From: Escherichia phage slur14
Sequence record: NC_028448.1
Length of the DNA: 64,000 bases
Strand: one strand, 5' to 3'
The notes under the pieces were generated by a model. That model had not been told where the DNA came from. It made no database searches and saw only the letters and a list, made by a program, of their open reading frames with translations. Shown here one piece after another: positions 5,195 through 14,936 of the stretch (the first letter of the stretch is position 1; each line of letters opens with the position of its first letter). Made by a program: the position numbers and the translations under genes.

Positions 5195-5668
5195 TTATTT
5201 GAATGATTTGACGTACTGAATAGAACCTTTACTATTCACGAAAGCGATTTTACCATTTTTATTATACATGGTAGCAGTACGCTGATAGCCATAAGTTTGT
5301 TTACCAGATTGATAACCAACTAATGCGAAATTATCTTCACCCATTTTATTCTGTTTAGCGCGAATACGTTCATGACCGTGTGCCATAAGAACCTTAGCAT
5401 CACCAGTTGAAATTGATCTACGAGTTTTTTCATCTTCAACTGTATTAACAAAGTCGTCAAATGAATCAAATTTAGCATGGGATTTATTATACAGTTTTCC
5501 ATCTACTGCATAATTATATCCCTGTACATCCATCTCAACTTCTGTACCATCATCCAATACAGCAGTAATTTTTTGACCTTTTTTAAATTTCAAAAGATCA
5601 GTAAAAGATTCAGCAATAATTTGAGAATTAATAGCTGCTTCAGTGATAAATTCTTGATATGTTTTCAT
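5195..5668 (-). CDS. internal-protein-like protein with capsid targeting sequence
   Basis: 157 aa; N-terminus MKTYQEFITEA... with ITE|A and IAE|S motifs typical of gp21-processed T4 internal proteins. Confidence 0.6.
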   Translation of the reverse strand: MKTYQEFITEAAINSQIIAESFTDLLKFKKGQKITAVLDDGTEVEMDVQGYNYAVDGKLYNKSHAKFDSFDDFVNTVEDEKTRRSISTGDAKVLMAHGHERIRAKQNKMGEDNFALVGYQSGKQTYGYQRTATMYNKNGKIAFVNSKGSIQYVKSFK

Positions 5669-6152: not shown

Positions 6153-7393
<1,241 letters not shown>

Positions 7394-10276: not shown

Positions 10277-10306
10277 ATAATATCTCAATCATGAGCCTGT
10301 GTAAAC
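10277..10306 (-). promoter_or_regulatory. T4-type early promoter
   Basis: Minus strand GTTTAC-18nt-TATTAT; overlaps inverted repeat aggctcat...atgagcct. Confidence 0.6.
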
Positions 10307-10570
10307 TTATTTCATATTATTGAAATATTCTTCTGCGATTTCATCGTTATCATGGTAAACTTTAGAAGACAGTTTAACATAACCTTCAGCAGTGAACATG
10401 TTAATCACAACCTTTACAGTATACCACTGACCATCTTCATTACCCATTACTGCGTAAGTTTCAAACATCGGATGATCAGGACCGATAACTTTAATATCAT
10501 TCACTGTACGACCAAAATCTTCTGAAACACATTTCATAAAGAAGTTGAACAGTTCGCCGTAATTATCCAT
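10307..10570 (-). CDS. hypothetical protein
   Basis: ORF-track start TTG; ATG at 10570 preceded by GGAGAA RBS; 87 aa. Confidence 0.5.
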   Translation of the reverse strand: MDNYGELFNFFMKCVSEDFGRTVNDIKVIGPDHPMFETYAVMGNEDGQWYTVKVVINMFTAEGYVKLSSKVYHDNDEIAEEYFNNMK

Positions 10571-10613
10571 TTCATTCTCCAAGTTGTTTTCTGTATCAGT
10601 AGTTGATAGTTGT

Positions 10614-10643
10614 ATAGTACCATGGAAGGGTAAGGATGTAAAC
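10614..10643 (-). promoter_or_regulatory. T4-type early promoter with A/T-rich upstream element
   Basis: Minus strand GGTTTAC-18nt-TGgTACTAT preceded by an AAAA/TTTT-rich stretch. Confidence 0.6.
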
Positions 10644-10774
10644 CGTTTTGTGAAAAAATTTTTAAAAAGTTTTGGGGAATTCTAGGGCAGGGAGGGGCAA
10701 TTAAAAGATAGGATAATATATTATAAAGGGTAGAAACTAAATGATGTCTAGAGAGGCCCGGAAAGGCCTAGATA

Positions 10775-10803
10775 CCAAAAAGCCCCAACCTTTTGGTCGG
10801 GGC
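10775..10803 (-). terminator. rho-independent terminator, copy A of a duplicated 31-bp element
   Basis: Minus strand GCCCCGACC-AAAA-GGTTGGGGC followed by TTTTTGG, directly 3' of the 10812..11285 gene. Confidence 0.75.
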
Positions 10804-10811
10804 TAAGAATG

Positions 10812-11285
10812 TTATTTGATTTGTTTAGCAGACCAAATGCGGTCTTTAATAATTTTTTGAATGTCTTCAACATACTCTAGGTCATGAGCATGTGGATTAT
10901 CTTTGAAACTATGAGCTCGCGCAAGTTTCTGGCCTTCGGTCTTAATTATCAAAAGTTCTTTAAGAATTGCTTCATACCTAGAGATAATTCCTTTAGCAAT
11001 ATTTTTTTCTTGTGCTGCTTTAGGGTCAGCCTTAGGAGCAGGTTTACCTGAAGCCTTTGCAAAAGCAGCTCCAGTAGCAACTAAACTTTTCCAAGCCATA
11101 CTAACTGCATTCCCTGTAAATCCTTCGGCTTTCATATCACGAGCAAATTGGAATCGTGATTCATCGGAAGCATCTTTATAGGAATATTTACCCGCGGCAA
11201 TGGCAGCTTTTGCGACAGCTTGAATTTCGGTGCTAGATGCTTCATTTAACACCGCTTCATTTAAAAATTGAGCATATGATTTCAT
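10812..11285 (-). CDS. internal-protein-like protein with capsid targeting sequence (cassette)
   Basis: 157 aa; MKSYAQFLNEAVLNEA... with two LNE|A motifs; own TATAAATA late promoter upstream and terminator downstream. Confidence 0.65.
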   Translation of the reverse strand: MKSYAQFLNEAVLNEASSTEIQAVAKAAIAAGKYSYKDASDESRFQFARDMKAEGFTGNAVSMAWKSLVATGAAFAKASGKPAPKADPKAAQEKNIAKGIISRYEAILKELLIIKTEGQKLARAHSFKDNPHAHDLEYVEDIQKIIKDRIWSAKQIK

Positions 11286-11325
11286 CTTATTTCCTGTTTT
11301 AATTCGTGGATTTAATATACTACTA

Positions 11326-11333
11326 TATTTATA
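11326..11333 (-). promoter_or_regulatory. late promoter TATAAATA for the internal-protein-like cassette
   Basis: Exact TATAAATA on minus strand about 40 nt upstream of ATG 11285. Confidence 0.6.
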
Positions 11334-11362
11334 CTAAAAAGCCCCAACCTTTCGGTCGGGGC
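11334..11362 (-). terminator. rho-independent terminator, copy B of the duplicated 31-bp element
   Basis: Minus strand GCCCCGACC-GAAA-GGTTGGGGC + TTTTTAG; 30/31 nt identical to copy A at 10775..10805. Confidence 0.75.
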
Positions 11363-11672
11363 TAAGCCTTGCGGCAACCTTGTCGGGGTTCCACCTGCTA
11401 AGGCAAGTGTTTGTACGAAACGCCGGGATTCGAACCCGGTTATTAAGCAGTTGACGCTACTCAATATTTTTAAAAGGCCATATCTCGACCATATCCGAAC
11501 GTTCCGTCAAAAACGCTACTCGGCTTACGGCAAAGATATTTCCTCGAATCGATAATTCGGTGCGCCGTTTCTGCTGTGATGTAAGAGGGCATCAATAAAC
11601 GCAAAGATTATTAACGCAATTCCTTACTCAGGGAACATCAGTCCGACGACTTACCGGTAGCGACCCGGTTTC
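11363..11672 (-). ncRNA. candidate small stable RNA region (position of T4 rnaC/rnaD)
   Basis: 310 nt with no ORF, between the 11673 stop and the terminator; minus strand has a tRNA-like T-arm CCGGG-TTCGAAT-CCCGG near 11421-11440. Confidence 0.4.
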
Positions 11673-12023
11673 TTAATATTCTTTTAAAGCATCAATCTGT
11701 TTACGGCGTTCACGCCATAAATCAATTGCTTCATACGCGGATTCAACATTTCGAATTGGACGGCATTTATATAAAGATTTGTGATTTTGATATTGCGTAG
11801 ATAACGGAATTTTATCTAAAAGGTCTTTACGTTCAAAGTATTCGTAACCATCTAAGCCAAATGAACGATTTTTGAGAAATTGCCAATGACCAAATTCGTT
11901 TTGAATATAAATATAATCCGCATGTTGATAAAGTAAATTAATTTCACGAAATGAGATATGTTTTTCATATTCATTGAAGTAAAATGTTAAATCATGAACT
12001 ACTAAATAAACATTACCTTTCAT
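11673..12023 (-). CDS. hypothetical protein
   Basis: 116-aa ORF with ATG start, 19 nt downstream of tRNA-Arg. Confidence 0.5.
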   Translation of the reverse strand: MKGNVYLVVHDLTFYFNEYEKHISFREINLLYQHADYIYIQNEFGHWQFLKNRSFGLDGYEYFERKDLLDKIPLSTQYQNHKSLYKCRPIRNVESAYEAIDLWRERRKQIDALKEY

Positions 12024-12992: not shown

Positions 12993-13601
12993 TTATTTAT
13001 TACGTGAAAAAGATTGTTCTATCAATTCTGGACACTTTCGTTCTATCCATTTTCTAGCTTTTTGTGGGCTTATACCTATTATTTTAGCAGCTTTACTAAC
13101 CCATCCAAATTTAGAATAATCGATTTTAACTAATTCTTCGTAAATTTCATCAGTTAAAATCTTTTCATTAATATTTACCAGTAAATGATATAATTTATTA
13201 TCATTAGCAATTTTAATGAATCTTTTATAGTTTCCGCCTTTACTTAAACCTAATGAAGTAATTGCAGATGATATAGTAGCCGAATTTAATAATGCGTTTA
13301 AAATTTCTTCATCACTAACATTATAACGCTTTTTATTATTTTTAATATTTTTACCAGCAAAAGTATCAGTTTGCGAATGGCAATTTGGACATAATAATCT
13401 TAAATTTGATTTAAGATGATTTTTATTATTTCCATCAATATGGTCTAATTGCAGAACAATATGCTTATTTTGCCATTTTGAAATTTTACAAATTGCACAC
13501 TCATATGGAAAAATATTTTCTTTTATTATTTTGTCTTTCAGCTTTCCTGTACTAAAATTTGGATGTTTTCCTTCAAAAATTTCAGCTAATTTAGTATCCA
13601 T
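12993..13601 (-). CDS. free-standing HNH homing endonuclease with C-terminal helix-turn-helix
   Basis: ATG at 13601 (ORF-track TTG at 13625); HNH zinc core CAICK...LDHIDGNNKNH...LLCPNCH; C-terminal HTH-like KAAKIIGISPQKARKWIERK; stop 7 nt from tRNA-Leu 5' end. Confidence 0.8.
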   Translation of the reverse strand: MDTKLAEIFEGKHPNFSTGKLKDKIIKENIFPYECAICKISKWQNKHIVLQLDHIDGNNKNHLKSNLRLLCPNCHSQTDTFAGKNIKNNKKRYNVSDEEILNALLNSATISSAITSLGLSKGGNYKRFIKIANDNKLYHLLVNINEKILTDEIYEELVKIDYSKFGWVSKAAKIIGISPQKARKWIERKCPELIEQSFSRNK

Positions 13602-13711
13602 AATATAATTCCCAATTATTAACAAAGGCTCTCAAACAAGAACCCTTGATGATAGAGGGTATTAATCAGTGCGGTATGAGTTAATAATAACAAATAATTC
13701 TTAAAGCATAT

Positions 13712-14572: not shown

Positions 14573-14600
14573 TTTATTCTCCTCAGTAGTTGATAGGGTA

Positions 14601-14630
14601 ATAGTATCACAACTAAAACCCTATGTAAAC
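14601..14630 (-). promoter_or_regulatory. T4-type early promoter
   Basis: Minus strand GTTTAC-18nt-TGaTACTAT between the ipI stop and the 14572 start. Confidence 0.65.
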
Positions 14631-14648
14631 AACTTTGTGAAATATTTA

Positions 14649-14936
14649 TTACAAAAGATTTTTAGCAATAATCTTGAGATGTGCCGCAGAAATGTGTTTA
14701 GCTTTAAACAACGCAGTTTCTTCAGCAGGAGAGATAACGATTGTAGCACCATCCTTTTTAGCAGACCACCCATCACCTAGGTAAACAGTACCTTTGATTT
14801 CTTCGCCATCAACCAAACTAATCATTGGTTTACCTTCTCGTCCTTTATTTGCTTTAATAACTTCAGAAGTAAGAGTAGCTTCAGTAATAGTAGAAACCGG
14901 GGTAGTTGTAGAAGTAAATTCTTTGAAAGTTTTCAT
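14649..14936 (-). CDS. ipI: internal protein I (capsid-packaged, injected)
   Basis: 95 aa; MKTFKEFTSTTTPVSTITE|ATLTSEVIKANKGREGKPMISLVDG... matches T4 IPI as recalled. Confidence 0.85.
   Translation of the reverse strand: MKTFKEFTSTTTPVSTITEATLTSEVIKANKGREGKPMISLVDGEEIKGTVYLGDGWSAKKDGATIVISPAEETALFKAKHISAAHLKIIAKNLL

What the first reader, a model, noticed from the sequence alone, without database searches (positions are those of the whole stretch)
10775..11362. Self-contained promoter-gene-terminator cassette encoding a capsid-targeted protein, bracketed by a duplicated 31-bp terminator
The 157-aa ORF 10812..11285 starts MKSYAQFLNEAVLNEA, the signature of T4 internal proteins: a short N-terminal capsid targeting sequence ending in L/I-x-E cleaved by the prohead protease. 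It has its own late promoter (11326..11333) and terminator (10775..10803). A second, 30/31-identical copy of that terminator (aaaaagccccaacctttYggtcggggctaag) lies just upstream at 11334..11362. Direct repeats flanking a single gene are what recombinational gain of a cassette would leave. Internal proteins are injected with the DNA, and T4 IPI is known to neutralise a host restriction system, so this is a candidate injected anti-defence effector of unknown target. An unusually long 230-bp non-coding stretch (10583..10811) follows.
Basis: partly seen in the sequence, partly recalled or inferred. Interest (0 to 1): 0.72.

Follow-up and report, generated by a model that had tools for sequence, protein, structure and literature searches.

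The report
Unnamed injected-protein gene cassette in T4-like phage
A T4-like phage carries a small, self-contained late gene whose protein has the address tag that loads proteins into the phage head for injection with the DNA; it belongs to a known class of probable anti-restriction proteins, but this family and its genomic site have not been labelled as such.

Summary
The window is Escherichia phage slur03 (Tequatrovirus). ORF 10812..11285(-) encodes 157 aa starting MKSYAQFLNE/AVLNE/A. This is a close match to the T4 capsid targeting sequence, with two L-x-E prohead-protease sites. TATAAATA lies 41 nt upstream. Two near-identical terminators (34/36 nt) bracket the gene.

T4 and PST have the same site empty, with a single terminator copy. 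RB69 carries a different tag-bearing cassette there, and CrRp10, PhAPEC2 and Bas37 carry both. The rnaC–e.8 gap is therefore a stackable internal-protein locus, in addition to the two the literature names.

The family is small and confined to T4-like phages, and every full-length member keeps the leader. A 94%-identical orthologue was detected in purified Yersinia phage fD1 virions. The Bas37 orthologue is non-essential.

The mature protein is basic and all-helical: a confidently modelled 3-helix N-domain, a Pro/Lys linker and a helical hairpin. It has no informative homologues.

Most likely it is a packaged, injected internal protein, probably an inhibitor of a modification-dependent restriction enzyme like Ip1–3 and Bas37_0260. 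The target is unknown.

Synteny in other genera favours ancient residence with loss in T4 over recent gain. The "unusually long" spacer is the ordinary T4 intergenic region. Verdict: new member of a known kind.

The parts
11414..11552 (-). rnaC (species 1 stable RNA), last gene of the tRNA operon; forms the upstream boundary of the site
   Evidence: 98.6% identical to the annotated T4 rnaC (T4 annotation)
11331..11366 (-). Upstream copy of the 36-nt repeat. It is the rnaC/tRNA-operon intrinsic terminator (stem 11340-11363, CGAAAG loop, U5 tail)
   Evidence: identical to the single T4 copy
11326..11333 (-). T4-type late promoter box TATAAATA, abutting the terminator T-run. In fD1 and CrRp10 the repeat end GGTAT supplies its first bases
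   Evidence: annotated as a late promoter in SA20RB; retained in Klebsiella phage KpV477
11292..11295 (-). Shine-Dalgarno AGGA, 7 nt before the ATG
   Evidence: read directly from the sequence
11241..11285 (-). Codons 1-15, MKSYAQFLNE|AVLNE|A: capsid targeting sequence with two L-x-E gp21 cleavage motifs
   Evidence: CTS and cleavage rule from PMC9026906; leader conserved in all distant homologues
11052..11240 (-). Residues 16-78: three-helix N-domain. It is the variable, allele-swapped module, with the invariant motif AGKYSYKD..E.R..F..D....GF
11025..11051 (-). Residues 79-87: Pro/Lys-rich flexible linker. The recombination breakpoint between the domains falls in or just after it
   Evidence: pLDDT 55; dS discontinuity between the domains
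10815..11024 (-). Residues 88-157: conserved helical-hairpin C-domain. An A7 run near its start is a frameshift hotspot
   Evidence: truncated variants break at this point; only generic coiled-coil fold matches
10812..11285 (-). Whole ORF, 157 aa (RB32ORF133c / phrog_2280), under purifying selection
10772..10807 (-). Downstream copy of the 36-nt repeat. It is the cassette's own terminator (stem 10781-10804, CAAAAG loop)
10571..10771 (-). Conserved T4 intergenic region: second hairpin (about 10737-10770) and the early promoter TTTACA-17-TACTAT (10614-10642) for e.8. Not part of the cassette
   Evidence: 93% identical to T4; early-promoter block resembles the one after ipI
10307..10570 (-). e.8, downstream boundary gene

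Best explanation
The 559-bp unit is a transcriptionally insulated cassette made of a late promoter, a ribosome-binding site, the ORF and an intrinsic terminator. It encodes a member of an unnamed family of T-even internal proteins.

Inferred course of events:
1. The gene is transcribed late from TATAAATA.
2. The precursor is recruited to the prohead scaffolding core through its 10-15-residue N-terminal capsid targeting sequence.
3. The prohead protease gp21 removes the leader after E10 and/or E15.
4. A basic (pI about 9.5), roughly 15.5-kDa two-domain helical protein stays in the head with the DNA and is injected with it.
5. There it most likely neutralises an early-acting host defence. By analogy with Ip1, Ip2, Ip3 and Bas37_0260, the target is most probably a modification-dependent (type IV) restriction nuclease. 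The swappable N-domain would be the specificity module.

The cassette sits in the rnaC-e.8 gap. This gap behaves as a third internal-protein locus where cassettes are added, lost or stacked by recombination between the near-identical terminators at their boundaries.

What is shown: the anatomy, the empty and alternative site states, conservation of the leader, virion association of an orthologue, and dispensability.

What is inferred, with my estimates: packaging of this exact protein (about 0.8), an anti-defence role (about 0.55), and a type IV restriction enzyme as target (about 0.35).
For: **Leader.**
- It matches IPII/IPIII MKTYQEFIAE at M, K, Y, F and E, with conservative changes elsewhere, and ends in L-N-E twice.
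- Only three ORFs of 50 aa or more in the window's six frames match the pattern. The other two are at the ipII/ipIII locus.
- The first 10 residues of IPIII suffice for packaging, and gp21 cuts after L/I-x-E (PMC9026906).
- All distant family members found among 1.84 billion representatives keep an F-x-x-F-L-x-E leader while the rest diverges below 30% identity.

**Expression signals.** The late promoter and terminator are confirmed and conserved in orthologous loci, including a Jiaodavirus.

**Packaging and dispensability.**
- fD1 Gp140, 94% identical, is a particle-associated protein at the strict threshold.
- The Bas37 orthologue bas37_0244 is non-essential, with 29/34 TA sites disrupted.
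- The gene is naturally absent from T4 and PST.

**Coding status.** Purifying selection, omega 0.04-0.2. The mature protein is basic, like IPI*.

**Functional precedent.** All four characterised CTS proteins inhibit type IV restriction enzymes (PMC12373910; bioRxiv 10.1101/2025.11.20.689424).

**Site states**.
- Empty: T4, PST.
- A only: slur03, fD1.
- A+B: CrRp10, PhAPEC2, Bas37.
- B only: RB69.
- Junctions always fall at a terminator.
Against: - There is no direct evidence of packaging, processing or injection for this protein.
- The fD1 proteome called 113-137 of 277 phage proteins, plus 672 host proteins, particle-associated, so its specificity is low.
- bas37_0244 is not reported among the conditionally essential genes on the hosts tested. 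In the one comparison row I read, log2FC was -0.11 and q = 1. If it has a target, that target was absent from those strains or is covered redundantly.
- There is no sequence or fold similarity to any known inhibitor.
- In some lineages (L015, L016, L018) the downstream terminator is a different sequence, so the direct repeat is not universal.
Confidence: 0.65

Rival explanations
1. The protein is packaged but is not an anti-defence effector. It would be a DNA-associated internal protein that helps charge neutralisation, DNA condensation or ejection, or that protects or positions the incoming genome, with no specific host target.
For: - It is basic, pI 9.5.
- The N-domain resembles generic three-helix DNA-binding or RecX-like modules.
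- The C-domain is strongly conserved and there is no positive selection, omega below 0.3 everywhere.
- No conditional phenotype is reported for bas37_0244.
Against: - The gene is freely lost (T4, PST, RB69) without replacement by a homologue.
- Its N-domain exists as three deeply diverged alleles exchanged by recombination. That pattern suggests specificity switching.
- All four tested proteins of this class turned out to be specific inhibitors.
Confidence: 0.2
2. The protein is made late but is not packaged. The CTS-like N-terminus would be a by-product of recombination with ip genes at the conserved 5' coding segment, and the protein would act in the cytoplasm of the producing cell.
For: - The 5' ends of cassettes A and B share 76% identity over 42 nt, covering the RBS and CTS codons. 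Such shared 5' segments could be recombination substrates.
- The virion proteomics has low specificity.
Against: - The leader is kept across homologues below 30% identity, where nucleotide homology for recombination is long gone.
- The orthologue passed the strict virion threshold.
- Ten IPIII residues are sufficient to package foreign proteins, so a protein carrying this leader would be expected to be packaged.
Confidence: 0.1
3. The cassette was recently gained by the slur03 lineage through insertion at the rnaC terminator, rather than being ancestral and lost from T4.
For: - T4 and PST have a clean empty site with one repeat copy.
- PeSL-type mini-circle integration is documented in T4-type phages (PMC2839356).
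- Cassette B is 95-100% identical across two genera, showing recent horizontal movement at this site.
Against: - Gene A is present in about 510 records, against about 669 records that carry the rnaC end, and it spans several genera.
- Tequatrovirus and Mosigvirus copies differ by 27% in protein with saturated dS, consistent with vertical divergence.
- Homologues lie just downstream of the tRNA genes in Jiaodavirus and in a Yersinia phage.
Confidence: 0.3

Closest known systems
[quoted passage not shown]
   Same: - N-terminal capsid targeting sequence ending in L/I-x-E.
- Small, basic, dispensable and variably present between T-even phages.
- Ip1-3 each inhibit one GmrSD type IV restriction enzyme.
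   Different: - The mature regions show no detectable sequence similarity.
- The fold differs: all-helical, two domains.
- The gene lies in the rnaC-e.8 gap, not at either recognised Ip locus.
- The target is unknown.
Bas37_0260 (IpVI-like), McrBC inhibitor at the ipI locus
   Same: A previously 'hypothetical' CTS-bearing protein, recognised by its leader only and shown to be an anti-type-IV-restriction factor.
   Different: - Unrelated sequence and a different locus.
- Its phenotype was visible on K-12. The orthologue of the present gene in the same phage (bas37_0244) showed none in the data I read.
IpIV (Pfam DUF7412) and the 93-aa CTS protein of this same phage
   Same: - They share the leader. 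The 93-aa protein even has the same double motif, [10 protein letters not shown].
- fD1 g129 (the IpIV family) is also virion-associated.
   Different: Unrelated mature regions, and they are located at the denV/e locus.
PeSL regulatory cassettes of T4-type phages (Arbiol 2010; Comeau 2014)
   Same: - GGGG...CCCC stem-loop terminators flank dispensable ORFs.
- Indels between close relatives have their junctions in the repeated element.
- Transcriptional insulation makes insertion and loss harmless.
   Different: - Here only the stem-loop is duplicated.
- The promoter fused to the upstream copy is a late TATAAATA box, not a sigma-70-like early promoter.
- The cargo is a late, virion-destined protein.
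Repoila et al. 1994 polymorphic ipI locus
   Same: Alternative CTS-bearing ORFs replace each other at one site. As I recall it, the paper proposes shuffling via conserved flanks.
   Different: - A different site.
- The paper is not held in the library, so I could not check whether this family was among the Ips it lists.

Membership tests
T-even internal proteins (CTS-targeted, gp21-processed, injected) | N-terminal 10-19-residue leader resembling the IPIII CTS (MKTYQEFIAE) | tested here: met
   MKSYAQFLNE compared with MKTYQEFIAE. The leader is retained in all full-length homologues.
T-even internal proteins (CTS-targeted, gp21-processed, injected) | gp21 cleavage motif L/I-x-E at the end of the leader | tested here: met
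   L8-N9-E10 and L13-N14-E15. The rule is taken from PMC9026906. Actual cleavage was not observed.
T-even internal proteins (CTS-targeted, gp21-processed, injected) | Late expression, so that the protein is present during prohead assembly | tested here: met
   Motif level only. TATAAATA lies 41 nt upstream of the ATG, is intergenic and is conserved across genera. No transcript data.
T-even internal proteins (CTS-targeted, gp21-processed, injected) | Physical presence in purified virions | tested here: inconclusive
   The 94%-identical fD1 Gp140 is listed as particle-associated at the strict threshold. That dataset flags about 40-49% of all phage proteins.
T-even internal proteins (CTS-targeted, gp21-processed, injected) | Injection into the host with the DNA | not testable with these tools
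   Requires labelled-virion or immunoblot experiments.
T-even internal proteins (CTS-targeted, gp21-processed, injected) | Dispensable and variably present among close relatives | tested here: met
   bas37_0244 is non-essential. The gene is absent from T4, PST and RB69.
T-even internal proteins (CTS-targeted, gp21-processed, injected) | Encoded at one of the two recognised Ip loci (descriptive, not strictly defining) | tested here: not met
   The gene lies between rnaC and e.8. The literature speaks of 'the two Ip loci'.
Known Ip sequence families (IPI_T4 PF11634, IPII, IPIII, IpIV/DUF7412) | Sequence homology of the mature region | tested here: not met
   No Pfam hit. BLASTP similarity is confined to the leader. 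IPI and IpIV hit their own families.
PeSL cassettes | Stem-loop terminators (GGGG..CCCC) flanking a dispensable ORF on both sides, with indel junctions in the repeat | tested here: met
PeSL cassettes | Strong sigma-70-like early promoter fused to the stem-loop | tested here: not met
   The upstream copy abuts a late TATAAATA box. The early promoter lies about 135 nt beyond the downstream copy.
PeSL cassettes | Excision as a mini-circle during infection | not testable with these tools
   Needs inverse PCR on infected cells (method in PMC2839356).
Type IV restriction (GmrSD/McrBC) inhibitors | Restores plating on a strain carrying a defined type IV enzyme | not testable with these tools
   Analogy only. 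No PADLOC or PDB relatives.

The most novel reading that the evidence does not exclude
The rnaC-e.8 gap is a third, so far unrecognised internal-protein locus of the Tevenvirinae. Terminator-bounded late cassettes stack combinatorially there. Family A would be a two-module injected effector whose conserved helical hairpin provides a common function, such as oligomerisation or DNA association. Its recombinationally swapped three-helix N-domain alleles would each disarm a different host defence, possibly one outside the type IV restriction class, given the RecX/winged-helix-like fold.
Probability: 0.25. Interest if true: 0.6.

Novelty: new member of a known kind. Interest (0 to 1): 0.4.

Why it matters
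Injected internal proteins are the first phage factors to meet host immunity. Every one characterised so far has revealed a specific restriction system and its inhibitor.

This family is present in about 500 sequenced therapeutic-type coliphages and is annotated only as 'hypothetical'. Recognising it adds:
- a concrete, testable candidate anti-defence gene, together with its neighbour, cassette B;
- natural null controls (T4, PST);
- three natural N-domain alleles for mapping specificity.

It also extends the Ip 'hotspot' concept from two loci to three. Finally, it gives a clean natural example of terminator-mediated cassette shuffling with all four occupancy states.

Tried and rejected
- **Family and fold searches gave no functional assignment.** Pfam, PADLOC and a PDB sequence profile found nothing significant. 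PHROGs places the protein only in an unknown-function family.
- **Whole-protein AF2 model.** Searched against BFVD and PDB, it returned only self-family hits and generic coiled-coil matches. I reject any functional inference from these.
- **Rfam.** It has no model hitting rnaC, rnaD or the spacer.
- **Counting empty and filled sites.** I tried a 171-nt T4 junction query. The tool joined split matches inconsistently, so the count of 231 records at 80% coverage or more mixes both states. I use only individually verified genomes and the rough ratio of 510 protein-positive records to 669 records with the rnaC end.
- **Literature.** Repoila 1994 is not in the library. Searches for locus names found nothing relevant.
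- **Positive selection.** I looked for omega above 1 and found none. The diversity is allelic and recombinational.
- **Aplg8 gene coordinates.** They were mis-set in my codon analysis, so that row was ignored.

Full report
**Identity of the window.** Region 10300-11700 is 100% identical to Escherichia phage slur03, a Tequatrovirus. On the minus strand the gene order is: a tRNA cluster of ten tRNAs, a 116-aa ORF, rnaD (11559-11673), rnaC (11414-11552, 98.6% identical to T4), the feature under study, e.8 (10307-10570), then e.7 and onwards.

**Check of the observation.**
- ORF 10812..11285(-) encodes 157 aa beginning MKSYAQFLNEAVLNEA.
- TATAAATA lies at 11326-11333(-), 41 nt before the ATG. AGGA lies 7 nt before the ATG.
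- The direct repeat is 36 nt (10772-10807 and 11331-11366), 34/36 identical. These are the only two copies in 64 kb, against none in 100 shuffles.
- Each copy folds into a 10-bp G+C-rich stem with a tetraloop and a U5 tail (-19.5 and -20.3 kcal/mol, z about -4.2).
Everything else is exact.

**The empty site.**
- Alignment with T4 shows that T4 goes straight from rnaC through one terminator copy (CGAAAG loop) into GGTATCTAAGCC and the e.8 promoter region. The window therefore equals T4 plus 559 bp.
- Yersinia phage PST is also empty. RB3, SHFML-11 and BF15 gave single-piece junction matches, which suggests the same.
- In fD1 and CrRp10 the repeat extends to ...GGGGCTTTTTGGTAT. The junction is GGTAT|AAATA on one side and GGTAT|CTAGG on the other, so the late-promoter box straddles the end of the repeat.

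**The site is a cassette array.**
- CrRp10, Mosigvirus PhAPEC2, fPS-90 and Bas37/KarlGJung carry a second unit between gene A and e.8. It is a 187-aa ORF starting MKTYAEFLTE|AAKL, with its own TATAAATA-like box and its own, different terminator.
- RB69 has rnaC, a terminator and cassette B only.
- All four states therefore exist: empty, A, A+B and B. Every junction falls at a terminator.
- In PhAPEC2 the two terminators flanking A are 27/27 identical to each other but are a different variant (GCCCCTTCC...) from the slur03 pair. This points to ongoing recombination or conversion between flanking copies.
- In three other lineages (L015, L016, L018) the downstream terminator is unrelated, so the repeat is common but not universal.
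- Cassette B is 95-100% identical across Tequatrovirus and Mosigvirus, which indicates recent exchange. Gene A is about 73% identical between those genera.

**Gain or loss.**
- Gene A occurs in 510 phage records, against about 669 that carry the rnaC end.
- Homologues lie just downstream of the tRNA genes in Mosigvirus and in several metagenomic T4-like contigs.
- In Klebsiella Jiaodavirus KpV477 the homologue follows a terminator and then TTTTTAGTATAAATA.
- A Yersinia phage of the fHe-Yen9-01 type has three CTS ORFs in tandem, including a B-like and an A-like one.
- This synteny favours an old resident that T4 lost by recombination between the flanking repeats. The process is reversible in principle (PeSL mini-circles, PMC2839356), so direction cannot be proved from one pair of genomes.

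**The protein.**
- There is no Pfam, PADLOC or PDB-sequence relative. It belongs to phrog_2280, of unknown function.
- The family is tiny: 14 clusters in 5.8 billion proteins and 13 representatives in 1.84 billion.
- Every full-length member starts with a leader of the form M-x-x-[FY]-x-[EDQS]-F-[LV]-x-E, even at below 30% identity.
- Within the window only three ORFs match this pattern, and the other two sit at the ipII/ipIII locus. IPI, with its longer leader, is identical to that of T4.
- The leader matches IPII/IPIII MKTYQEFIAE. The 93-aa neighbour shares the same double motif, [10 protein letters not shown].
- According to PMC9026906, the first ten IPIII residues suffice for encapsidation and gp21 cuts after L/I-x-E.
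- The mature protein would be about 15.5 kDa with pI 9.5.
- AlphaFold gives a disordered leader, a three-helix N-domain (alone: pLDDT 94, pTM 0.80), a Pro/Lys linker and a helical hairpin.

**Evolutionary pattern.**
- The gene is under purifying selection (omega 0.04-0.2).
- It is mosaic. The N-domain exists as three deeply diverged alleles (dS above 1.9, saturated), while the linker and C-domain can be almost identical between the same pair of genomes (dS about 0.1).
- The A7 run at the start of the C-domain coincides with frameshifted, truncated versions in three allele lineages. A Klebsiella-phage homologue is also truncated, at its own linker.

**Experimental data found in the literature.**
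- Yersinia phage fD1 g140 is 94% identical. Table S3 of PMC8309999 lists it as a phage-particle-associated protein at the strict threshold. That study flagged 113-137 of 277 phage proteins, so its specificity is low.
- Bas37 is MZ501089 (KarlGJung), and bas37_0244 is the orthologue. HIDEN-SEQ classes it non-essential (29/34 TA sites hit). In the one comparison row I read there was no conditional effect (log2FC -0.11, q = 1). It is not mentioned among the hits in the text.
- Ip1, Ip2 and Ip3 each inhibit one GmrSD variant (PMC12373910). Bas37_0260, another protein recognised only by its leader, inhibits McrBC.
- The same literature refers to 'the two Ip loci'. None of the record annotations listed in the two searches names gene A or B as an internal protein.

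**The spacer.** Region 10571-10776 is 93% identical to the T4 terminator-to-e.8 spacer. It contains a second hairpin and the early promoter TTTACA-17-TACTAT with an A/T-rich upstream element. The promoter block resembles the one downstream of ipI. It is ordinary and is not part of the cassette.

**Conclusion.** It is a late, insulated cassette for a capsid-targeted, probably injected protein, bounded by duplicated terminators that mediate its presence/absence polymorphism. It is a new, unnamed member of the known class of T-even internal proteins, at a locus not so far counted among the Ip loci. Its role as an anti-defence effector, most likely against a modification-dependent nuclease, is a reasoned inference and not a result.

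Noticed in passing
window 5195..5668 (-): A second 157-aa CTS-bearing ORF (MKTYQEFITE...). It matches Pfam DUF7412 (E 1e-95), is annotated IpIV in Yersinia phage PST, and its fD1 orthologue g129 is a virion 'head protein'. It lies on the far side of denV from e, unlike T4 ipII/ipIII, which slur03 lacks.
   Followed up: partly
window 6153..6434 (-): A 93-aa CTS ORF ([10 protein letters not shown]|SILNE|A) overlapping the stop of the lysozyme gene e. It has no Pfam family and shows the same double cleavage motif as the gene under study.
   Followed up: partly
window ~10990-11004 (A7 run 'caagaaaaaaatatt' inside the ORF): Frameshifted, truncated versions of the protein break exactly here in three different allele lineages (P0006, P0008, P0009). 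KpV477 is truncated at its own linker. This could be a homopolymer sequencing error or a real frameshift hotspot yielding an N-domain-only product.
   Followed up: no
L006 811-1374; L007 2089-2652; Bas37 bas37_0243 (not in this window): Cassette B, a 187-aa CTS protein, is classed 'Essential' by HIDEN-SEQ (1 of 48 TA sites hit). Yet it is absent from T4 and slur03 and frameshifted in the RB69 record. The same screen also calls hoc, wac and inh essential, so this may be an artefact of insertions in certain late genes, or a toxic truncation.
   Followed up: partly
window 11673..12023 (-): A 116-aa ORF (phrog_3355, unknown function) is inserted between tRNA-Arg and rnaD, which are adjacent in T4.
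   Followed up: no
window 12993..13625 (-): A 210-aa HNH-type homing-endonuclease-like ORF abuts tRNA-Leu where T4 has tRNA-Gln. slur03 has tRNA-His, Asn, Tyr and Met, which T4 lacks, and has no segB at the T4 position.
   Followed up: no
window 14583..14662 vs 10600..10680 (-): The early-promoter block downstream of ipI and the one downstream of gene A share about 76% identity over 80 nt (TTTCACAAA..GTTTACAT..TACTAT..CTATCAACTACTGA). Both Ip sites are therefore closed by similar terminator-plus-early-promoter modules.
   Followed up: partly
L019 200-358, 922-1491, 1501-2037: A Yersinia phage of the fHe-Yen9-01 type has three CTS-like ORFs in tandem right after its tRNA genes: 52 aa, a 189-aa B-like ORF and a 178-aa A-like ORF. 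The last two have no terminator between them.
   Followed up: partly
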